From a virus (taxonomy: Duplodnaviria; Heunggongvirae; Uroviricota; Caudoviricetes), in IMG/VR virus record IMGVR_UViG_3300029186_000016, positions 1-19,269 of that record: a stretch of 19,269 bases of DNA; one strand, 5' to 3'. The notes beneath the pieces were generated by a model that had not been told where the DNA came from, searched no databases, and saw only the letters and a list, made by a program, of their open reading frames with translations. Of this stretch, positions 4,149-15,061 are shown piece after piece. Both the position numbers and the translations under genes were made by a program. Numbering within the stretch: position 1 is the first letter of the stretch; each line of letters opens with the position of its first letter.

Positions 4149-4219
4149 AACTGCGGGTGCTTGAGGCTATCTGTCTCAGGCATGAACACCAAAAGGCAGA
4201 TAGAGAAAAGCCCCAGTTA

Positions 4220-4276
4220 ACATTACGCGTCCTGCAAGACGCTTAACATTAATCTGAGGCCCAATCTATGTCTCAC
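4220..4276 (-). ncRNA. Candidate Sok-like antisense RNA
   Basis: Minus-strand promoter-like hexamers inside the mok 5' end (-35 TTGCCT = plus 4306-4311, 17-bp spacer, -10 TAACCT = plus 4283-4288) would start a transcript about 9 nt into mok running antisense to the leader, as in known hok/sok loci. Contains hairpin GCGTC-n6-GACGC (plus 4227-4242). No clear U-tract terminator, so ends are uncertain. Confidence 0.3.
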
Positions 4277-4480
4277 AAATGTAGGTTAGCCTCTTACGTG
4301 CCGAAAGGCAAGGAGAAGCAGGCTATGAAGCAGCAAAAGGCGATGTTAATCGCCCTGATCGTCATCTGTTTAACCGTCATAGTGACGGCACTGGTAACGA
4401 GGAAAGACCTCTGCGAGGTACGAATCCGAACCGGCCAGATGGAGGTTGCTGTTTTCGTAGACTACGAATCTAGAGAGTAA
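4268..4480 (+). CDS. mok: mok-like reading frame (in-frame N-terminal extension of hok, 70 aa)
   Basis: ORF begins 57 nt upstream of the hok ATG in the same frame, as I recall for the chromosomal mokC/hokC and mokB/hokB pairs. Confidence 0.45.
   Translation: MSHKCRLASYVPKGKEKQAMKQQKAMLIALIVICLTVIVTALVTRKDLCEVRIRTGQMEVAVFVDYESRE
4325..4480 (+). CDS. hok: Hok/Gef-family type I toxin (51 aa)
   Basis: MKQQKAMLIALIVICLTVIVTALVTRKDLCEVRIRTGQMEVAVFVDYESRE has one N-terminal TM helix and the conserved RKDLCEV...EVA...YES signature of Hok/Gef/RelF proteins. GGAG SD upstream. Confidence 0.85.
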   Translation: MKQQKAMLIALIVICLTVIVTALVTRKDLCEVRIRTGQMEVAVFVDYESRE

Positions 4481-7447: not shown

Positions 7448-7471
7448 AACCCGCTTTATGCGGGTTTTTTT
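7448..7471 (+). terminator. Rho-independent terminator (tR'-like)
   Basis: AACCCGC-TTTAT-GCGGGTT stem followed by a T7 run. Confidence 0.75.
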
Positions 7472-7594
7472 ATGCCTGAAAAACGGCACAGAACATTAAA
7501 CGCGCTGGTAGTTGTGAATACTGGTCTTTCAGCTTGCTGGCTTTTTGGACAAGAGTTATTGGTATGTCACGTTAACCGGAAAAGGGAAAAAGGC

Positions 7595-7792
7595 ATGCTA
7601 AAACAGCAGGATATGACCGAAACCGCCAGAGTGGTGTTTAATGAATTAAGCGTCACCGAACCGGCGACCGTCGGGGAAATTGCGCAGAATACTTACCTTT
7701 CACGCGAACGTTGCCAGTTAATACTGACTCAGCTTGTTATGGCGGGTCTGGCAGATTATCAGTTCGGTTGTTACAGACGCCTTCCGCAGTGA
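7595..7792 (+). CDS. Small winged-helix/HTH DNA-binding protein (65 aa)
   Basis: Internal ATG at 7595 with GGGAAAAAGG SD. Translation contains an HTH-like stretch TVGEIAQNTYLSRERCQLILTQLVMAGL. The 7472 start begins inside the terminator T-run with no SD and is rejected. Confidence 0.5.
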   Translation: MLKQQDMTETARVVFNELSVTEPATVGEIAQNTYLSRERCQLILTQLVMAGLADYQFGCYRRLPQ

Positions 7793-7942
7793 AGGCTTTT
7801 TAATTTGTGGTAATGGGCGGCTGGTGGGTGTTAGCGGCACCTGCCAGCCATCTGCTCATGCGTTGGGGTCACAAGCAAACCTCAGGCCCATCTGCTTTGC
7901 GCAAAAGCGGTATGAGCCTATCAGAGAAGTGCTTATTGATCT

Positions 7943-8992
7943 ATGATTAATACTGTAAAAATATCCAGTTGTGAGTTAATCAACGCTGATTGCCTGGAGT
8001 TTATCCAGACCTTACCGGAAAACTCTGTCGATCTGATAGTCACAGACCCGCCATACTTTAAAGTGAAGCCCGAGGGCTGGGATAACCAGTGGAAGGGCGA
8101 CGATGATTACCTGAAATGGCTGGACCAGTGTCTGGCGCAGTTCTGGCGGGTACTGAAGCCTGCCGGAAGTCTTTACCTGTTCTGTGGTCATCGCCTGGCA
8201 TCTGACACCGAAATCATGATGCGTGAGCGCTTTAATGTGCTGAACCACATTATCTGGGCGAAGCCGTCCGGACGCTGGAACGGGTGCAATAAGGAAAGTC
8301 TGCGGGCGTATTTTCCGGCAACAGAGCGCATTCTGTTTGCAGAACATTATCAGGGACCGTATCGCCCGAAAGATGATGGCTATGTGGCACAGGGGCGCGG
8401 GCTAAAACAGCACGTCATGGCCCCGCTGATTTCTTACTTTCGTGATGCGCGTAAATCACTGGGAATAACGTCAAAACAGATAGCGGAAGCCACCGGAAAG
8501 AAAAACATGGCTTCGCACTGGTTTGGTGCCAGTCAGTGGCAGTTACCGAACGAGGGTGATTACAATAAATTGCAGGCGTTGTTTGCGCGTGTTGCGGCAG
8601 AAAAACATCAGCGCGGGGAACTGGAAAAGCCACACCACCAGCTGGTCAGCACATACAGTGAGCTGAACCGGCAGTACACGGAACTGCTGAGTGAATATAA
8701 AAATTTGCGGCGGTATTTCGGTGTGACGGCGCAGGTTCCGTACACCGATGTCTGGACGCATAAACCGGTGCAGTACTATCCAGGAAAACATCCGTGCGAA
8801 AAACCGGCAGAAATGCTGCAGCAGATAATCAACGCGAGCAGTCGTCCGGGTGACCTGGTTGCAGATTTTTTTATGGGCTCAGGTTCAACGGTAAAAGCTG
8901 CACTGGCGCTCGGGCGTCGTGCGATTGGCGTTGAACTGGAGACCGGACGTTTTGAGCAGACAGTCAGGGAAGTTCAGGATTTAATCGTTTGA
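7943..8992 (+). CDS. Beta-class DNA methyltransferase (N6-adenine or N4-cytosine)
   Basis: Motif IV DPPY (LIVTDPPY) is N-terminal and motif I FxGxG (DFFMGSGST) is C-terminal, i.e. the beta-class order. A roughly 150-aa insert with an HTH-like segment lies between them. Confidence 0.85.
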   Translation: MINTVKISSCELINADCLEFIQTLPENSVDLIVTDPPYFKVKPEGWDNQWKGDDDYLKWLDQCLAQFWRVLKPAGSLYLFCGHRLASDTEIMMRERFNVLNHIIWAKPSGRWNGCNKESLRAYFPATERILFAEHYQGPYRPKDDGYVAQGRGLKQHVMAPLISYFRDARKSLGITSKQIAEATGKKNMASHWFGASQWQLPNEGDYNKLQALFARVAAEKHQRGELEKPHHQLVSTYSELNRQYTELLSEYKNLRRYFGVTAQVPYTDVWTHKPVQYYPGKHPCEKPAEMLQQIINASSRPGDLVADFFMGSGSTVKAALALGRRAIGVELETGRFEQTVREVQDLIV

Positions 8993-9041
8993 AACGGATG
9001 ATATTGAAGAATTAATTACGCGTCGTTATTATGCGGCTCCC

Positions 9042-9117
9042 GGCCCTTTAGCTCAGTGGTGAGAGCGAGCGACTCATAATCGCCAGGTCGCTGGTTCAAA
9101 TCCAGCAAGGGCCACCA
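9042..9117 (+). tRNA. ileZ: tRNA with anticodon CAU; resembles tRNA-Ile2 (lysidine type), though Met cannot be excluded from the anticodon alone
   Basis: Cloverleaf folded by hand: acceptor GGCCCTT/AAGGGCC, D-stem GCTC/GAGC, anticodon loop CTCATAA, T-loop TTCAAAT, encoded CCA. Sequence resembles E. coli ileX as I recall it. Confidence 0.8.
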
Positions 9118-9124
9118 TCACATA

Positions 9125-9201
9125 CCGCCATTAGCTCATCAGGATAGAGCGCCAGCCTTCGAAGCTGGTTGCGCGGGGTTCGAGTCCTCGATGGCGGTCC
9201 A
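9125..9201 (+). tRNA. argN: tRNA-Arg (anticodon UCG)
   Basis: Cloverleaf folded by hand: acceptor CCGCCAT/ATGGCGG (unusual C1:G72), D-stem GCTC/GAGC, anticodon stem CCAGC/GCTGG with loop CTTCGAA, T-loop TTCGAGT, encoded CCA. Confidence 0.75.
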
Positions 9202-9214
9202 TTATCTGTACCCT

Positions 9215-9291
9215 GCGTTGTTAGCTCAGCCGGACAGAGCAATTGCCTTCTAAGCAATCGGTCACTGGTTCGAATCCAGTACAACGCGCCA
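9215..9291 (+). tRNA. argO: tRNA-Arg (anticodon UCU)
   Basis: Cloverleaf folded by hand: acceptor GCGTTGT/ACAACGC, D-stem GCTC/GAGC, anticodon stem ATTGC/GCAAT with loop CTTCTAA, T-loop TTCGAAT, encoded CCA. Confidence 0.85.
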
Positions 9292-9305
9292 CACTTATTT
9301 TCCCT

Positions 9306-9331
9306 GGCTCGCTTTTGCGGGCCTTTTTTTT
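9306..9331 (+). terminator. Rho-independent terminator after the tRNA trio
   Basis: GGCTCGC-TTTT-GCGGGCC stem (one G-U pair) followed by T8. Confidence 0.7.
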
Positions 9332-9526
9332 AAATGTCTCACAATTCAGACGGTTGACTGTTGTCTGGTTGGCGGGGAGTTTGTTAAAAGAAACTGGCAT
9401 GGTGAATCCCCCTGTGCGGAGGGGCAATCAGCGAGTAGGTATATGGGATAATCGCGGATTCAGGTGCTGGTACTGAATTCACCGGGAGGCACCCGGCACC
9501 ATGCAATGGCACATAGCGCCACTCTC

Positions 9527-9562
9527 CAGCCCCTCTCCGGAGGGGCTGTTTATATTGATTTT
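9527..9562 (+). terminator. Strong GC hairpin plus T-rich tract (plus-strand terminator; also lies 3' of the minus-strand ORF)
   Basis: Perfect 9-bp stem CAGCCCCTC-TCCG-GAGGGGCTG followed by TTTATATTGATTTT. Confidence 0.65.
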
Positions 9563-9582
9563 GTCAGATGTGAGTAAACTGC

Positions 9583-9918
9583 TTATGGACTTTGTTGTTT
9601 TAGCCCATAAGGACATATTTGCAGAGTGCAACGGTTATTAAAGCATTCATTCAATACGTTATCTGTATTTGTAGGGCATTCCTGGCTGTTTTTGATTAAA
9701 TTCCAGAATGTTTTATTGAATGGTACTACGTTGTAAATGGTTACAGGTAGCACTTTGTTATTGAGCATGATGCCTGTGTGAGTCAGTGTAAATATACTTT
9801 CAGGAGGTAAGAAAGCATCCGATTGATACCAGATTATTAATTTTATTTTACTCCATATGACTGAAAAAGATATTCCGCATGATGGCTGGATAACTGTATC
9901 AATCACAATCCACTTCAT
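9583..9918 (-). CDS. Hypothetical protein (111 aa), AT-rich cargo gene on the opposite strand
   Basis: Only long ORF in a visibly AT-rich stretch. AAGGAAA SD 6 nt upstream of the ATG on the minus strand. Stop TAA. No recognisable motif or signal peptide. Confidence 0.45.
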
Positions 9919-10163
9919 TTAGTTTCCTTGTTTATGCCTTGCTGGTGATGTTCTGAAAAGTATAAATGATATTTTTGATTGTAAACCATAGAGCAGAATT
10001 ATTTTTCTGATGTTGTTTATTGTTTATTTAAATGCAGGGTGGTTTATATCTCGTCTTGTAGTTTATCCATGCATATCTGCTTGATGATGAGGTTTTTATT
10101 TAAGGTATGGTTTTGTGTTTTTTCTGTATTACATGTCAGGTATTTTAAAGAATCATTTTTCAG

Positions 10164-12035
10164 ATGGTGGAAAGAACCATGGCATTTAAACACTATGATG
10201 TTGTCAGGGCGGCGTCGCCGTCAGATCTTGCGGAAAAGCTGACACATAAACTGAAAGAGGGCTGGCAGCCGTTTGGTAGTCCGGTGGCCATAACCCCTTA
10301 TACCCTGATGCAGGCGATTGCAGCAGAAGGTGATGTGGTCGTCAGTGGTGCAACTGAGCCGGAGTGGTACTACGTCATCGTACTGGCCGGGCAATCCAAT
10401 GCCATGGCTTACGGTGAAGGGCTTCCGCTTCCGGATTCTTACGATGCGCCCCACCCACGCATTAAGCAACTGGCCCGTCGCAACACAGTGACTCCCGGTG
10501 GTAAAGCATGCGCATTTAACGACATCATTCCGGCAGACCACTGCCTGCATGATGTTCAGGATATGAGCGCACTGAATCATCCGAAGGCAGACCTGAGCAA
10601 AGGGCAGTACGGCTGTGTCGGCCAGGGCTTACATATTGCCAAAAAACTGCTTCCGTATATCCCGAATAACGCGGGGATCCTGCTGGTACCATGCTGTCGT
10701 GGTGGTTCGGCATTCACCCAGGGCGCGGAGGGGACATTCAGTGCGGACACGGGGGCCAGCCAGGATTCGGCACGCTGGGGTGTGGGTAAACCGTTATATC
10801 AGGACCTGATCGCACGCACCAAAGCGGCATTACAGAGGAACCCGAAAAATGTGTTGCTGGCGGTGTGCTGGATGCAGGGCGAATTTGACATGAGCGCTGC
10901 CACCTACGCACAGCAACCGGACCTGTTCACGGCCATGCTGAAGCAGTTCCGTACTGACCTTTCCGGATTTAACGCGCAGTGCCATGGCGGCAGTGCTGCA
11001 GTTGTACCGTGGATTTGTGGCGACACGACGTATTACTGGAAAAACACATACGGCACACAGTATGACTCCGTCTACGGCGCGTACAAAAACAGGGAGAGCG
11101 ACAACGTTTTCTTTGTGCCGTTCATGACCGACGGTAACGGCAACAACACGCCCACCAACTTACCGGCAGAAGACCCGGATATTGCTGATGCAGGTTATTA
11201 CGGCGCGCAATCCCGTAGTAATGGTAATTGGGTATCATCAAATCGCCCGACGCATTTCAGCTCATGGGCGCGTCGTGGCATTATTCCCGATCGTATGGCA
11301 ACTGCTATTCTGAACGTAGCCGGTCGCACCTTAGCCTTCATTAGTGGTAAGGCACCGGAAATCAAACCCTCGCCCGGCGGCGACACTCCATCGGGGCCGT
11401 CTGATGGTGACACATCCGTTCGTACAGTCTCCCTGCTGCCGACAGCCGGAGAGGCTGCTGCGCAGGGCTGGACCATCACCGGCGGCAGTGTTGCGCTGGA
11501 AGATGGTGTGTTTAAGGTTACCAAGCAGAGCAATAAAACCTGGTCCCTGATGCATCCGGTGGATGACGCAGTCTCCCTGCTGACACGGGGTGGCAGACTG
11601 AGCTGTAAGTTTCGACTGTCAGGCGCACTGACCAACAACCAGTTCGGTCTGGGAATTTATCTGTATACCGATGTAGCGTTACCTGACGTCGTGGCGATGA
11701 CCGGGACTGGTAACCCGTTCCTGATGTCGTTCTTCACCCAGACCACAGACGGCAAACTGAATCTGATGCATCACAGGAAAGCAGGAAACACAAAGTTGGG
11801 CGAGTTCGGGAATTACAGTAACGACTGGCAGACGCTGGAGCTGGTGTTCACCGCCGGCAGTGCCACGGTTACTCCGAAACTGAATGGAGTGGCTGGCCCG
11901 GCATTCCAGGTCATAAAAGACAGTCTGACACTGGGGCTGAATGCGCTGACGCTGACGGATATTACCAAAAATGCAGCGTATGGCGTTGAGATAGAAAGTC
12001 TGGTGCTGGAGATAAATGCACCGGCATCATCATAA
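10164..12035 (+). CDS. nanS-p: Prophage sialate O-acetylesterase (NanS-p-like; SGNH/SASA esterase core)
   Basis: VIVLAGQSNAMAYGEG carries the GQSN catalytic-serine motif of the SASA/DUF303 esterase domain. Size of about 620 aa and position between the tRNAs and the lysis genes match what I recall for nanS-p of EHEC prophages. The start could instead be the ATG at 10179. Confidence 0.75.
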   Translation: MVERTMAFKHYDVVRAASPSDLAEKLTHKLKEGWQPFGSPVAITPYTLMQAIAAEGDVVVSGATEPEWYYVIVLAGQSNAMAYGEGLPLPDSYDAPHPRIKQLARRNTVTPGGKACAFNDIIPADHCLHDVQDMSALNHPKADLSKGQYGCVGQGLHIAKKLLPYIPNNAGILLVPCCRGGSAFTQGAEGTFSADTGASQDSARWGVGKPLYQDLIARTKAALQRNPKNVLLAVCWMQGEFDMSAATYAQQPDLFTAMLKQFRTDLSGFNAQCHGGSAAVVPWICGDTTYYWKNTYGTQYDSVYGAYKNRESDNVFFVPFMTDGNGNNTPTNLPAEDPDIADAGYYGAQSRSNGNWVSSNRPTHFSSWARRGIIPDRMATAILNVAGRTLAFISGKAPEIKPSPGGDTPSGPSDGDTSVRTVSLLPTAGEAAAQGWTITGGSVALEDGVFKVTKQSNKTWSLMHPVDDAVSLLTRGGRLSCKFRLSGALTNNQFGLGIYLYTDVALPDVVAMTGTGNPFLMSFFTQTTDGKLNLMHHRKAGNTKLGEFGNYSNDWQTLELVFTAGSATVTPKLNGVAGPAFQVIKDSLTLGLNALTLTDITKNAAYGVEIESLVLEINAPASS

Positions 12036-12120
12036 AAAGTGAGCCAGTCAAATGGAAGGTATCGTTAAACTCACCGGTAGTGTCAGTGGGTCGTCTGAGA
12101 TGCCTGCATGAGTTATCAGA

Positions 12121-12150
12121 GCCATCAGTACTTAACTGGTGGCTTTTTTT
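12121..12150 (+). terminator. Rho-independent terminator between nanS-p and the holin gene
   Basis: GCCATCAG-TACTTAA-CTGGTGGC stem (one G-U pair) followed by T7. Confidence 0.7.
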
Positions 12151-12185
12151 ATTGTTGTCAGCTTCCGGATAACGGGAGACGGGGT

Positions 12186-12401
12186 ATGTACCAGATGGAA
12201 AAAATCACAACAGGTGTGTCATACACCACGTCAGCGGTGGGAACGGGCTACTGGTTCCTGCAGTTGCTGGACAGGGTTTCCCCGTCTCAGTGGGCGGCAA
12301 TAGGCGTGCTGGGGAGTCTGCTGTTTGGGTTGCTGACATATCTGACTAACCTGTATTTCAAAATCAGAGAGGACCGTCGTAAGGCGGCGCGGGGAGAGTA
12401 A
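12186..12401 (+). CDS. S: Holin, phage-21 S-type pinholin with dual start (Met1 and Met4)
   Basis: [10 protein letters not shown]...[40 protein letters not shown] closely resembles the S21 pinholin as I recall it. GGAGACGGGG SD before ATG 12186, with a second ATG at 12195. The track's 12108 start runs through the terminator and is rejected. Confidence 0.8.
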
Positions 12402-12405
12402 AGCG

Positions 12406-12750
12406 ATGAAGAAAAAATACGAACTGGTTGTTAAAGGGATAAATAATTACCCGAATAAGATTACTGTTACTGTGGCACTGGAAATTGGTGGGTATCCGTC
12501 ACTGTTGTTGCCAGATGTGGCGATTAGTCTTGACCGTACTGAAGATGCCACGCTGGAGTTTTACGAAGCTGAGGCGAAAAAGCAGGCGAAGCAGTTTTTC
12601 ATGGATGTTGCTGCCGGGTTATGTGAAGGGGATGGTCCGTTGCCGGAAAAGCGCCCCGTAATTTTAGAGGCGCAGGATGTGTTGATAACCTACAGAGGAA
12701 AACTACCGGGAATAATTACTGGTTCTCTGAAGACTCCACCGCTGGCCTGA
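12406..12750 (+). CDS. Hypothetical protein inserted between holin and endolysin (YdfR/DUF1327-like position), 114 aa
   Basis: ORF starts 5 nt after the holin stop and ends about 50 nt before the endolysin. A gene in this position exists in Qin-type prophages as I recall; identity not verified. Confidence 0.5.
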   Translation: MKKKYELVVKGINNYPNKITVTVALEIGGYPSLLLPDVAISLDRTEDATLEFYEAEAKKQAKQFFMDVAAGLCEGDGPLPEKRPVILEAQDVLITYRGKLPGIITGSLKTPPLA

Positions 12751-12800
12751 AGACTTAACATATCCAGGGATTTGAAATCGATAAACCCTGATAAATATCC

Positions 12801-13334
12801 ATGAACACCAAAATCAAATACGGCCTGTCGGCTGCCGTTCTGGCGCTGATTGCCGCAGGTGCGCCTGCGCCTGAAATCCTCGACCAGTTTCTGGATGAAA
12901 AGGAAGGTAACCACACCACGGCATACCGTGATGGCGCGGGTATCTGGACCATCTGCCGCGGTGCCATCCTGGTGGATGGCAAACCTGTCGTTCCGGGCAT
13001 GAAGTTGTCGAAGGAAAAATGCGACCGGGTTAACGCCATTGAGCGTGATAAGGCGCTGGCATGGGTGGAGAAAAACATCAGAGTGCCATTGAGTGAACCC
13101 CAGAAAGCGGGGATCGCGTCATTCTGTCCGTACAACATTGGCCCCGGTAAGTGTTTTCCGTCGACGTTTTATAAACGAATTAATGCAGGTGATCGCAGGG
13201 GAGCGTGTGAGGCGATTCGCTGGTGGATTAAGGACGGTGGCAGAGACTGCCGTATTCGCTCAAATAACTGTTACGGTCAGGTATCCCGTCGTGACCAGGA
13301 GAGCGCGCTGGCGTGCTGGGGAATCGACAGATAA
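12801..13334 (+). CDS. R: Endolysin, T4-lysozyme-like muramidase with N-terminal signal-anchor-release (SAR) segment
   Basis: Gly/Ala-rich weakly hydrophobic N-terminus (YGLSAAVLALIAAGAPAP) followed by the E-x8-D-x5-T catalytic spacing (EKEGNHTTAYRDGAGIWT). Pairing with a pinholin is expected for SAR endolysins. Confidence 0.8.
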   Translation: MNTKIKYGLSAAVLALIAAGAPAPEILDQFLDEKEGNHTTAYRDGAGIWTICRGAILVDGKPVVPGMKLSKEKCDRVNAIERDKALAWVEKNIRVPLSEPQKAGIASFCPYNIGPGKCFPSTFYKRINAGDRRGACEAIRWWIKDGGRDCRIRSNNCYGQVSRRDQESALACWGIDR

Positions 13335-13428
13335 GCAGAATATTTTGCTAATCAATGACGTTGGCCAAGGCGGACGGATAACACGAAATCCTGCGAACTG
13401 GCAAAATGTAAGTGAATAAAAGTAAAAA

Positions 13429-13463
13429 CCCCGTTTGTTGGCTGCAAGCGGGGTTTTGTGTTT
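13429..13463 (+). terminator. Rho-independent terminator-like hairpin downstream of the endolysin
   Basis: 9-bp stem CCCCGTTTG/CAAGCGGGG (one G-U pair) with a 7-nt loop, followed by TTTTGTGTTT. Confidence 0.55.
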
Positions 13464-13532
13464 CCTGACTCTGGAAAAGTCAAAGGAGAAAGTGTGTTTG
13501 ATTTTAGCAAACTGATTCGGGAGATTCGAGTG

Positions 13533-13631
13533 ATGGCTGAAAAATTATCCACCTGGAAGTTCATTCTTATCTGGCTGGTGTTTGTGATTATGGCCTCCGG
13601 TTATTTCATCGGTCAGATACGCTGGTGGTGA
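13533..13631 (+). CDS. Hydrophobic mini-ORF (32 aa) between endolysin and Rz
   Basis: Hand-translated: MAEKLSTWKFILIWLVFVIMASGYFIGQIRWW, a single predicted TM helix. GGAGA SD about 9 nt upstream. Its stop TGA overlaps the region of the Rz ATG (TGAAATG). Under the track's length cutoff. Confidence 0.35.
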   Translation: MAEKLSTWKFILIWLVFVIMASGYFIGQIRWW

Positions 13632-13632
13632 A

Positions 13633-14100
13633 ATGAACCGCGTACTGTGCGTGGTCATCATTGCCCTGCTGGTGGCCTGTGGTGCGCTTAGTCTGGGGCT
13701 GAATCATTACCGTGATAACGCCATAACCTACAAAGAGCAGCGCGATAAAAAAGTCAGTGAGCTGGAGCAGGCAAATGCAACCATTACTGATATGCAGCAG
13801 CGCCAGCGTGATGTTGCTGCACTTGATGCCAGATACTCGAGGGAATTAGCCGATGCGAGAGCTGAAAATGAAACTCTGCGCGCTGACGTTGCCGCTGGTC
13901 GTAAGCGCCTGCGGATCAACGCCACCTGCCCCGGTACCGTGCGTGAAGCCCCCACCACCTCCGGCGTGGATAATGCAACCGGCCCCCGACTGGCAGACAC
14001 CGCTGAACGGGATTATTTCACTCTCAGAGAGCGGTTGATGCTGATGCAGAAGCAGCTGGAAGTGGCGCAGGAATATATCCGCACTCAGTGCCTGAAATAA
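13633..14100 (+). CDS. Rz: Rz i-spanin
   Basis: N-terminal TM helix (VLCVVIIALLVACGALSL) then a coiled-coil-like periplasmic domain, with an embedded +1-frame lipoprotein gene. Confidence 0.75.
   Translation: MNRVLCVVIIALLVACGALSLGLNHYRDNAITYKEQRDKKVSELEQANATITDMQQRQRDVAALDARYSRELADARAENETLRADVAAGRKRLRINATCPGTVREAPTTSGVDNATGPRLADTAERDYFTLRERLMLMQKQLEVAQEYIRTQCLK
13868..14038 (+). CDS. Rz1: Rz1 o-spanin lipoprotein, embedded in Rz in another frame
   Basis: MKLCALTLPLVVSAC lipobox followed by a proline-rich segment (PPAPVPCVKPPPPPAW). Lies entirely within the Rz gene. Confidence 0.7.
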   Translation: MKLCALTLPLVVSACGSTPPAPVPCVKPPPPPAWIMQPAPDWQTPLNGIISLSESG

Positions 14101-14353
14101 GTTTTGCTGATGCGCGGTATTGTCGCCGTATCCCCGCATTAACAGAGACCGCAGCCCGACCGGGAGACTCCTCTGCGCGAGTGTGCGGGGATAATCAAAA
14201 ACGATACACACCGGGGTTTACCGCGTTAACGGAGCGCGGCGTTGTCCCCTCATAGTCGCCTGTCCGGTGCGATGGTGGAAGAAACCGGACTACATTGAAA
14301 ATGATAACCATTATCATTTTTGCGGGTCCTTTCCGGCGATCCGGGCCGTTACG

Positions 14354-14365
14354 GGGCGGCGACCT
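14354..14365 (+). other. cosN cohesive-end sequence GGGCGGCGACCT (lambda-type)
   Basis: Exact 12-mer present, flanked by ...GGCCGTTACG on the left and CGCGGGTTTTCGCTATTTATGAAAATTTTCCGG on the right, matching the lambda cos junction as I recall it. About 190 nt upstream of nu1. Confidence 0.8.
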
Positions 14366-14405
14366 CGCGGGTTTTCGCTATTTATGAAAATTTTCCGGGG
14401 AAAAT

Positions 14406-14514
14406 CATGTCGGTACTTCTCGAACATAACTATTTGTTTTTTCTAATATCGAATCCGTAAAAGGTCCGACATGAAAACGCCTAAAAAAGTCATTTTCGGG
14501 CACTTTCATGTCGG
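14406..14514 (+). repeat. cosB-like region: three copies of CATGTCGG in alternating orientation (putative small-terminase R sites) flanking an AT-rich IHF-like spacer
   Basis: CATGTCGG at 14406-14413 (+), CCGACATG at 14466-14473 (reverse complement) and CATGTCGG at 14507-14514 (+), with consensus about tTTCATGTCGGnCC. Lies between cosN and the nu1 start. Confidence 0.55.
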
Positions 14515-14541
14515 CCCCTGTATTTATTGTGAGACTGTTTC

Positions 14542-15061
14542 ATGAAGGTTAATAAAAAGAAACTTGCCGAAATTTTCAACGTGGATCCGCGAACGATTGA
14601 ACGCTGGCAGTCTCAGGGACTCCCTTGCGTCTCCGGAGGTGGTAAGGGCGTTGAATCTGTATTTGATACCGCCATGGCAATTCAGTGGTATGCGCAGAGG
14701 GAAGCTGATATCGAAAATGAAAAACTCCGTAAAGAGGTTGAGGATTACAGGGCTGCCAGTGAGGCAGATCTCCAGCCTGGGACTATTGAGTACGAACGCC
14801 ATCGACTTACGCGTGCGCAGGCCGACGCACAGGAGCTGAAGAATGCCAGAGACTCCGCAGAGGTGGTGGAAACCGCATTCTGTACTTTCGTGCTGTCACG
14901 GATCGCAGGTGAAATTGCCAGTATTCTTGACGGGATCCCTCTCTCGGTACAGCGGCGTTTTCCGGAACTGGAAAACCGACATGTTGATTTCCTGAAACGG
15001 GATATCATCAAAGCCATGAACAAAGCAGCCGCGCTGGATGAACTGATACCGGGGTTGCTGA

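What the first reader, a model, noticed from the sequence alone, without database searches (positions are those of the whole stretch)
9332..10163. The stx position holds no toxin but an AT-rich islet with a divergently transcribed 111-aa ORF of unknown function
In Stx-converting phages the stxAB operon sits directly after the tRNA trio and before nanS-p (established knowledge, recalled from memory). Here Q, the MTase, the three tRNAs, nanS-p and the lysis genes are all present, but the slot has no A/B-toxin-like ORFs. It holds about 800 bp of visibly AT-rich DNA flanked by intrinsic terminators (9306-9331, 9527-9562) and a single minus-strand ORF (9583..9918) with a strong SD, several Cys residues, no signal peptide and no motif I recognise. 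The ORF is transcribed against the late operon and shares an AT-rich divergent promoter region (9919-10163) with nanS-p. A long open frame in AT-rich, stop-codon-prone DNA is unlikely by chance. This is a good candidate for an uncharacterised moron such as a defence, anti-defence or host-interaction factor.
Basis: partly seen in the sequence, partly recalled or inferred. Interest (0 to 1): 0.65.

Follow-up and report, generated by a model that had tools for sequence, protein, structure and literature searches.

The report
Prophage copy of known iraL gene

Summary
The sequence features are real, but the gene is not unknown. The minus-strand ORF 9583..9918 is 111/111 aa identical to IraL of uropathogenic E. 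coli CFT073 (c1429, WP_000871291.1). It scores 162 bits against the NCBIfam IraM model (cut-off 121) and matches the solved IraM core (PDB 8TWD, E 9e-32). IraL is a published RssB anti-adaptor that stabilises RpoS in log phase (PMC4045071). The published 5'-RACE end of its mRNA maps to window 9951 with 31 of 32 bases matching.

The GC-rich left part of the finding, 9368-9557 (+), is an STnc100-family small RNA (Rfam RF02076, 133 bits).

Comparison with related phages puts the true AT-rich insert at about 9549-10178 (630 bp, 32.7% GC). It lies between the sRNA and nanS-p. In the two Stx1 phages checked, and in Stx2 phages according to two papers, stx lies upstream of that sRNA. The two cargo slots are therefore adjacent, not identical.

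The islet occurs in 1446 of 5426 complete E. coli genomes and in four phage records. dN/dS is 0.15-0.31.

Verdict: a true moron and host-interaction gene, but already known and annotated. Low interest.

The parts
9042..9291 (+). Three phage tRNA genes. tRNA-CAU is called Met by ARAGORN and tRNA-Ile by RefSeq (ileZ type). The other two are tRNA-Arg-UCG and tRNA-Arg-UCU. They form the left landmark of the cargo region.
9306..9331 (+). Intrinsic terminator-like hairpin plus T-run after the tRNA cluster. It is conserved in the related phages PPwrbA_EH2201 and Nil3.
9368..9557 (+). STnc100-family small RNA gene (Rfam RF02076), related to EcOnc27/sRNA103 and PasD. It includes its own terminator hairpin at 9527-9548. 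GC is 55.8%. The RefSeq pseudo-CDS at 9387-9512 (-) lies wholly inside it and is probably an annotation artefact.
   Evidence: 133.1 bits against gathering score 47, E 1.4e-29, full model 1-206; homologues at the same place in L002-L006 and L008
9549..10178 (.). The iraL islet: a 630-bp AT-rich module (32.7% GC). It replaces the ~220-bp spacer that iraL-less relatives carry between the sRNA terminator stem and the nanS-p start codon.
   Evidence: alignment A1; composition
9583..9918 (-). iraL coding sequence: 111 aa, an RssB anti-adaptor of the IraM/IraL/RssC family.
9919..9951 (-). iraL 5' UTR of 33 nt. The transcription start is placed at 9951 by homology to the 5'-RACE end published for CFT073. 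The SD sequence AAGGA lies at -11..-7.
   Evidence: 31 of 32 match, 0 expected by chance; PMC4045071 section 'iraL TSS identification'
9959..9985 (-). Probable sigma-70 promoter of iraL: -10 TATACT (9959-9964) and -35 TTTACA (9980-9985) with a 15-nt spacer. This is my reading of the sequence upstream of the mapped start. The hexamers printed in the paper's figure were not available to me.
   Evidence: sequence; alignment A3; PMC4045071 states that sigma-70-like -10/-35 elements lie upstream of the TSS
9952..10178 (-). AT-rich upstream regulatory region of iraL. The stretch 9919-10178, which includes the 33-nt 5' UTR, is 30.4% GC. It is conserved among iraL loci and aligns only patchily with the K-12 iraM upstream region. 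Its right end also supplies the ribosome-binding region of nanS-p.
10179..12035 (+). nanS-p-type SASA-family carbohydrate esterase, the first late-operon gene after the cargo region and its right landmark.

Best explanation
The interval holds two known elements of lambdoid-prophage late regions.

(1) 9583..9918 (-) is iraL. Its product IraL is a small protein of the IraM/IraL/RssC family. It binds RssB, the adaptor that delivers the stationary-phase sigma factor RpoS to the ClpXP protease. Binding stops that delivery, so RpoS is stabilised. For IraL this happens already in exponential phase. The gene sits on a 630-bp AT-rich islet (9549-10178) with its own sigma-70 promoter (TSS about 9951). 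It points against the Q-dependent late operon, so it can be expressed from the repressed prophage. It is a lysogenic-conversion gene.

(2) 9368-9557 (+) is an STnc100-family, probably Hfq-binding, small RNA with its own terminator, convergent with iraL.

Shown here: identity of the protein, family membership, the mapped 5' end by homology, the islet boundaries, its distribution and purifying selection. Taken from the literature: RssB binding and RpoS stabilisation. Inferred: expression from this particular prophage, and expression in the lysogenic state.
For: The protein is 111/111 aa identical to CFT073 IraL. The RefSeq protein WP_000871291.1 is the same in CFT073's potB prophage, in genomes near-identical to the window and in O104:H4. 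The coding sequence differs from CFT073 by one synonymous base.

NCBIfam NF007393 'anti-adapter protein IraM' scores 162 bits against a cut-off of 121, over residues 1-110. PDB 8TWD IraM(1-78) matches at E 9.1e-32 without gaps. Of the 13 IraM residues reported to contact RssB, 10 are identical in IraL: I4, I6, W22, K26, I42, C14, F18, W30, I61 and Y62. The other three are conservative changes: T13S, H63N and I64V (alignments).

The published 5'-RACE sequence of iraL mRNA matches 9920-9951 (-) at 31 of 32 positions.

Experiments on the identical protein are in PMC4045071: deletion and complementation change RpoS level and stability, and two-hybrid and co-purification assays show binding to RssB. 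iraL mRNA rises 1.6 log2 on a shift to 37 C (PMC12890032). IraL levels rise in a fur mutant (PMC7157518).

dN/dS is 0.15-0.17 against K-12 iraM and 0.17-0.31 among iraL alleles. The frame is intact in all 7 alleles sampled. The islet is found in 1446 of 5426 complete E. coli genomes and in 4 phage records, at least one annotated as a partial genome. The sRNA evidence is, and homologues are reported as Hfq-bound sRNAs downstream of stx2B (PMC12711010).
Against: No expression or binding data exist for this particular strain or prophage. The window differs from CFT073 at a few promoter and UTR positions: a C-to-T change in the UTR, an A/T difference next to the -35 and an A/G difference at -3. 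The effect of these on expression is unknown. The generic promoter scan did not report the mapped promoter, because its spacer is 15 nt. On the minus strand no canonical intrinsic terminator follows iraL: the sRNA hairpin has no T-run on that side. The 3' end of the mRNA is therefore undefined. Pfam has no model for the family, and PHROGs lists it as 'unknown function'.
Confidence: 0.93

Rival explanations
1. The ORF is the orthologue of K-12 IraM: a PhoP-activated, H-NS-silenced anti-adaptor induced by Mg2+ starvation, as the RefSeq product name suggests, rather than IraL.
For: RefSeq names it 'anti-adapter protein IraM'. It passes the NCBIfam IraM subfamily model. Its upstream region is AT-rich (30% GC), like H-NS-silenced genes.
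Against: It is only 66/107 (62%) identical to K-12 IraM but 100% identical to IraL. PMC4045071 reports that iraL and iraM matches form two non-overlapping groups, each at least 95% identical internally. The upstream region aligns with iraL loci and only patchily with iraM. The RACE-mapped iraL 5' end is present. By eye I found no canonical PhoP box (two TGTTTA-type repeats 11 bp apart) at the -35; only one GGTTTA half-site is there.
Confidence: 0.04
2. The ORF is an uncharacterised defence, anti-defence or other phage-directed factor. On this view RssB binding is incidental or secondary.
For: It sits in a cargo hotspot of the phage late region. PHROGs has a full-length phage family for it (phrog_4407, E 3e-73) labelled 'unknown function'. 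No one appears to have tested phage phenotypes; this is only my impression from the papers found.
Against: There is no PADLOC hit. A specific host target and phenotype are published for the identical protein (PMC4045071). The RssB-contact residues of IraM are conserved.
Confidence: 0.02
3. The ORF is a chance open frame or a decaying remnant in AT-rich DNA, and the only functional element in the interval is the sRNA.
For: The DNA is AT-rich and the protein is short. There is no Pfam domain. The sRNA is a strong Rfam match.
Against: An ORF this long arises in 15 of 5000 shuffles. dN/dS is 0.15-0.31 and the frame is intact in all sampled alleles, including the 93.5%-identical one. A solved structure exists for the paralogue. 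Genetics and biochemistry are published for the identical protein.
Confidence: 0.01

Closest known systems
IraL of E. coli CFT073 (c1429; Hryckowian et al. 2014, mBio, PMC4045071)
   Same: The protein is identical (111/111 aa), and the coding sequence differs by one synonymous base. The mapped 5' UTR matches at 31 of 32 positions. The setting is the same kind: a lambdoid prophage late region with the order Q, tRNAs, STnc100-like sRNA, iraL (-), nanS-p/DUF1737, holin.
   Different: In CFT073 the prophage sits at potB, carries an IS200 and a DUF3927 ORF upstream, and has a truncated nanS-p. Here an MTase gene precedes the tRNAs, nothing lies between the tRNAs and the sRNA, and nanS-p is full length. 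A few promoter-region bases also differ.
IraM of E. coli K-12 (b1160; structure with RssB, PDB 8TWD)
   Same: It belongs to the same family (NF007393). It is 62% identical without gaps, 10 of 13 RssB-contact residues are identical, and all five Cys and the C-terminal ICPYGLK are shared.
   Different: It is a paralogue, not an orthologue. Regulation differs: iraM is induced by Mg2+ starvation, whereas iraL is expressed in log phase (PMC4045071). Two-hybrid data report that IraL contacts only the RssB N-terminal domain while IraM contacts both domains. IraL has four extra C-terminal residues. K-12 iraM lies beside the e14 attachment site, with no STnc100 match in the 12-kb K-12 stretch scanned.
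STnc100 / EcOnc27 (sRNA103) / PasD family of prophage small RNAs
   Same: It is a full-length match to RF02076 with a terminal intrinsic terminator. It occupies the same position as in Stx phages and stx-less relatives, directly upstream of the sialate-esterase (nanS-p) region (PMC12370729, PMC12711010, bioRxiv 10.64898/2026.05.13.724894).
   Different: Here it follows the tRNAs directly rather than stxB. Its terminator tail is supplied by the iraL islet (GTTTATATTGATTTTG instead of TTCTTATGG). Function and targets of this variant are unknown.
stxAB cargo of Stx-converting phages
   Same: The late-region neighbourhood is the same: after Q and the tRNAs and before nanS-p and the lysis genes. 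Both are accessory cargo.
   Different: No toxin ORFs are present. stx lies on the late-operon strand upstream of the sRNA. iraL lies on the opposite strand downstream of the sRNA, with its own promoter.
AgvB anti-sRNA (RF02702) of EHEC/Shigella prophages
   Same: In Shigella phage 75/02 Stx, AgvB occupies the same gap between the STnc100-like sRNA and nanS-p, also on the minus strand (L005 3666-3725). Like iraL it is a small antagonist of a host regulator.
   Different: AgvB is an RNA that sponges GcvB, not a protein. Its score is only just above the gathering threshold (56.6 against 56). No AgvB-like sequence is found in the window.

Membership tests
IraM/IraL/RssC anti-adaptor family (NCBIfam NF007393) | Full-length sequence match above the curated cut-off | tested here: met
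   162 bits against a cut-off of 121, residues 1-110 on profile positions 1-113 of 114
IraM/IraL/RssC anti-adaptor family (NCBIfam NF007393) | Homology to the structurally defined IraM core (beta-barrel, residues 1-78) | tested here: met
   phmmer against PDB 8TWD_A gives E 9.1e-32 with a gapless 78-residue alignment. The fold itself was not modelled.
IraM/IraL/RssC anti-adaptor family (NCBIfam NF007393) | Conservation of the residues that contact RssB in the IraM-RssB crystal structure (clusters I-III) | tested here: met
   10 of 13 are identical and 3 are conservative (T13S, H63N, I64V). The residue list is from bioRxiv 10.1101/2023.01.07.523045 and the alignments are.
IraM/IraL/RssC anti-adaptor family (NCBIfam NF007393) | Binds RssB and stabilises RpoS against ClpXP | not testable with these tools
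   Published for the identical protein from CFT073 (PMC4045071). Not measured for this strain.
IraL (as opposed to IraM) | At least 95% nucleotide identity to CFT073 iraL over the whole coding region (criterion used in PMC4045071) | tested here: met
   One synonymous difference in 336 nt and 111/111 aa
IraL (as opposed to IraM) | iraL promoter and 5' UTR as mapped by 5' RACE | tested here: met
   31 of 32 match at 9920-9951 (-), with none expected by chance. The upstream region aligns along its whole length with CFT073.
IraM orthologue (K-12 b1160) | At least 95% identity to K-12 iraM | tested here: not met
   62% aa identity; dS about 1.5
Shiga toxin operon (stxAB) | A-subunit (~315 aa) and B-subunit (~89 aa) ORFs on the late-operon strand between the tRNAs and nanS-p | tested here: not met
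   There are no such ORFs. The annotation of the collinear genome has none.
STnc100 sRNA family (Rfam RF02076) | Covariance-model score above the gathering threshold over the full model | tested here: met
   133.1 bits against 47, model positions 1-206 of 206
STnc100 sRNA family (Rfam RF02076) | Expressed as a discrete, Hfq-associated RNA | not testable with these tools
   Reported for homologues (EcOnc27/sRNA103 and PasD) in PMC12711010 and bioRxiv 10.64898/2026.05.13.724894. An intrinsic terminator is present. The folding z-score of -1.95 is unremarkable.
Phage 'moron' (independent cargo unit) | Present or absent between related phages with sharp boundaries, and with deviant base composition | tested here: met
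   Homology breaks at about 9548 and resumes at about 10177-10179 when compared with L002, L003, L005 and L006. The islet is 32.7% GC against 51.1% for the window.
Phage 'moron' (independent cargo unit) | Own promoter and own terminator | tested here: inconclusive
   A promoter is supported by homology to the RACE-mapped start. No canonical terminator lies on the minus strand downstream of the stop codon; only the sRNA hairpin is there, without a T-run on that side.

The most novel reading that the evidence does not exclude
The gap between the STnc100-family sRNA and nanS-p may be a dedicated 'antisense cargo' slot of lambdoid late regions. It would be filled alternately by small antagonists of host global regulators: iraL against RssB/RpoS proteolysis here, and AgvB against GcvB in Shigella phage 75/02. 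The tightly linked, convergent sRNA-iraL pair might form a regulatory unit. iraL has no terminator of its own, so its transcript could run antisense into the sRNA. Q-antiterminated late transcription reading through the sRNA terminator could in turn silence iraL on induction. This would couple host RpoS levels to the lysogeny/lysis state of the prophage.
Probability: 0.1. Interest if true: 0.4.

Novelty: already known. Interest (0 to 1): 0.12.

Why it matters
It matters little as a discovery. iraL was described in 2014 and is annotated in over a quarter of complete E. coli genomes. What this check adds is modest. It gives an exact map of the islet (9549-10178). It shows that stx and iraL use adjacent but different slots separated by an STnc100-family sRNA gene. 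It points out that a RefSeq pseudo-CDS is drawn over that sRNA and that PHROGs still lists the IraL family as 'unknown function'. For the scan, it is a useful negative: an AT-rich, reverse-oriented small ORF in the stx neighbourhood is here a known RpoS-stabilising conversion gene, not a new defence or virulence factor.

Tried and rejected
Pfam gave no hit, so the family is absent from Pfam, not from knowledge.

PADLOC gave no hit, so the defence reading is not supported.

The generic sigma-70 scan returned two minus-strand sites, no more than the shuffles give. It missed the RACE-supported promoter and was not used as evidence either way.

I first transferred annotation from L001 (FDAARGOS_536). 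BLAST showed it is collinear with the window only over about 7460-14847. I replaced it with L013, which matches at 99.7% over all 19269 bases.

I looked for an AgvB remnant or any other Rfam family in 9292-10250 at E up to 1. Only STnc100 appeared. The ordinary ~220-bp spacer of an Stx1 phage also has no significant Rfam match.

I checked whether O104:H4 carries iraL inside its Stx phage, which would show both slots filled at once. It does not: iraL is in a separate stx-less prophage.

RNA folding of the sRNA alone is not distinctive (z = -1.95). The Rfam covariance score is the real evidence.

I did not run the large protein-database searches or structure prediction. Identity to a characterised protein and a solved paralogue made them unnecessary.

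Full report
**1. What is in the sequence**

Between the three phage tRNA genes (9042-9291) and the esterase gene nanS-p there is no toxin-like ORF. The minus-strand ATG ORF 9583..9918 (111 aa) exists exactly as described. It has AAGGA 7-11 nt upstream of the ATG. Terminator-like hairpins are found at 9306-9323 and 9527-9548.

The composition is not uniform. Positions 9368-9557 are 55.8% GC. Positions 9549-10178 are 32.7% GC, against 51.1% for the whole window. An ORF of at least 111 codons arose in 15 of 5000 shuffles of the AT-rich stretch.

**2. The ORF is iraL**

NCBIfam places the protein in NF007393, 'anti-adapter protein IraM', at 162 bits against a curated cut-off of 121. phmmer against the PDB finds IraM residues 1-78 (8TWD) at E 9.1e-32 without gaps. 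Pfam has no model. PHROGs has a full-length family, phrog_4407, labelled 'unknown function'. PADLOC has nothing.

Megablast finds the 909-bp region at 100% identity in many E. coli chromosomes, and the ORF is annotated there as 'anti-adapter protein IraM', WP_000871291.1. The same protein accession is annotated in the potB prophage of CFT073. Direct comparison gives 111/111 identical residues, and the coding sequences differ by one synonymous base.

That CFT073 gene, c1429 (PMC12890032), is iraL. Hryckowian et al. 2014 (PMC4045071) characterised it. Deletion and complementation change RpoS level and stability in exponential phase. The protein binds RssB in two-hybrid and co-purification assays. 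The gene is widespread in E. coli and Shigella but absent from laboratory strains.

Their 5'-RACE end of the mRNA, ACATCACCAGCAAGGCATAAACAAGGAAACCA, matches window 9920-9951 on the minus strand at 31 of 32 positions, with none expected by chance. This places the transcription start at 9951 and gives a 33-nt leader. Upstream I read a -10 TATACT (9959-9964) and a -35 TTTACA (9980-9985).

K-12 IraM is 62% identical. It shares 10 of the 13 residues that contact RssB in the crystal structure, and the other three are conservative changes.

**3. Selection and distribution**

Seven iraL alleles were sampled: the window, CFT073, phage vB_EcoS-640R1 and four other genomes, down to 93.5% identity across the islet. 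All keep the frame. dN/dS is 0.17-0.31 among them and 0.15-0.17 against iraM.

The islet occurs in 1446 of 5426 complete E. coli genomes, at 1-3 copies per genome. It is annotated as the anti-adaptor in every listed record. It also occurs in four phage records, at least one of which is annotated as a partial genome. The alternative outcome, a homology search that identifies the gene, is what happened.

**4.

Positions 9368-9557 (+) match Rfam RF02076, STnc100, over the full model at 133 bits against a gathering score of 47. The '9527-9562 terminator' is this RNA's terminator.

Homologous sRNA genes sit at the same place in every related locus I fetched. The literature describes the Stx2-phage copy about 75 nt downstream of stx2B (PMC12370729). 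It overlaps the Hfq-bound sRNA EcOnc27/sRNA103 (PMC12711010). A recent preprint relates STnc100 to the PasD sRNAs that lie next to the esterase gene.

RefSeq draws a 'partial hypothetical protein' pseudo-CDS at 9387-9512 (-), entirely inside this RNA. It is most likely an annotation artefact.

**5. Exact anatomy of the cargo region**

I aligned the window with four loci: a stx-less wrbA phage (L002), phage Nil3 (L003) and two Stx1 phages (L005, L006). Homology runs through the sRNA up to the terminator stem at about 9548. It resumes at the nanS-p start codon 10179.

The window therefore carries a 630-bp module in place of the ~220-bp spacer of the other phages. This module supplies the tail of the sRNA terminator, iraL with its promoter, and the ribosome-binding region of nanS-p.

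In both Stx1 phages stx1AB lies upstream of the sRNA, and two papers report the same for Stx2 phages. In other iraL prophages, TerB or DUF3927 ORFs occupy that upstream slot. So stx and iraL use neighbouring, distinct slots.

The downstream slot is itself variable. In Shigella phage 75/02 Stx it holds an AgvB match on the minus strand, at 56.6 bits against a gathering score of 56.

The iraL islet appears tightly linked to the sRNA. 1429 genomes cover at least 80% of the sRNA-plus-islet query, and 1428 cover at least 80% of the islet alone. The sRNA itself is far more widespread, at 8036 places in 2860 genomes.

**6. How it most likely works**

IraL is made from its own promoter on the strand opposite the late operon, and so presumably from the repressed prophage. 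It binds RssB and prevents delivery of RpoS to ClpXP. This raises RpoS already in growing cells.

The protein identity, family, contact residues and promoter are shown here. The biochemical and physiological steps come from PMC4045071 and from the IraM-RssB structure paper. Expression from this particular prophage is inferred.

The rivals are each unlikely. The IraM-orthologue reading fails on identity and on promoter context. The defence or anti-defence reading has no support. A chance ORF is contradicted by selection and by the published experiments.

**7. Novelty**

The gene and the sRNA are both known and annotated. The slot map and the annotation gaps are minor additions. An untested idea remains: that the convergent sRNA-iraL pair and late-operon read-through form a regulatory unit. 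I rate it at about 10%.

Noticed in passing
window 4155-4480: A hok/sok type I toxin-antitoxin locus. The sok RNA (RF01794, 120 bits) lies at 4155-4330 (+), and a Hok/Gef CDS is annotated at 4325-4480 in the collinear genome.
   Followed up: partly
L005 3666-3725 (Shigella phage 75/02 Stx, minus strand): An AgvB anti-sRNA match (RF02702, 56.6 bits against gathering score 56) sits between the STnc100-like sRNA and nanS-p. This is the same gap and the same strand as iraL in the window. The gap looks like a variable slot for small antisense-oriented cargo.
   Followed up: partly
window 9387-9512 (-): RefSeq genomes annotate a 'partial hypothetical protein' pseudo-CDS that lies wholly inside the STnc100-family sRNA gene. 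It is probably an annotation artefact repeated across many genomes.
   Followed up: partly
window 9583-9918 (-): PHROGs family phrog_4407 matches IraL over its full length (E 3e-73) but is labelled 'unknown function'. Pfam has no model for the IraM/IraL family. Phage-oriented annotation would therefore miss this known gene.
   Followed up: yes
window 9583-9672 (-), protein residues 82-111: IraL and K-12 IraM share all five cysteines (C14, C82, C93, C98, C103) and an identical ICPYGLK motif near the C-terminus. The IraM structure paper removed this tail as proteolytically unstable and called it less conserved and flexible. A metal- or redox-related role for the tail is untested.
   Followed up: no
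window 10164-10181: The longest nanS-p ORF starts at ATG 10164. The start conserved with other phages and used by RefSeq is ATG 10179 (MAFKHYDVV). The iraL islet replaces the GGGAGG ribosome-binding site seen in other phages with GGTGGAAAG.
   Followed up: partly
window 12036-12185: The intergenic region between the nanS-p stop and the holin start contains a strong terminator-like hairpin (12118-12146 plus a T-run, + strand). A 2026 preprint places the PasA/PasC prophage sRNAs at this position. No Rfam family reached its gathering score there.
   Followed up: no
window 9042-9117: ARAGORN calls this tRNA-Met (CAT), but RefSeq annotates it as tRNA-Ile. That fits the ileZ-type tRNA of Stx-phage tRNA clusters, whose CAU anticodon is modified to read AUA.
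   Followed up: no
L007 33053-33184; L008 630-1222; L014 4112-4243: In other iraL-carrying prophages the stretch between the tRNAs and the sRNA, which is the true stx slot, holds small DUF3927 ORFs or a TerB-family gene. In the window this slot is empty: only 76 nt separate the last tRNA from the sRNA.
   Followed up: partly
L012 6413-7003 (E. coli K-12): K-12 iraM lies about 100 bp beyond the icdC end of the annotated e14 prophage feature, so just outside e14. It sits next to the prophage-like gene ycgX (DUF1398). There is no STnc100 match in the 12-kb K-12 stretch scanned. PMC4045071 describes iraM as being 'on the e14 prophage'.
   Followed up: partly
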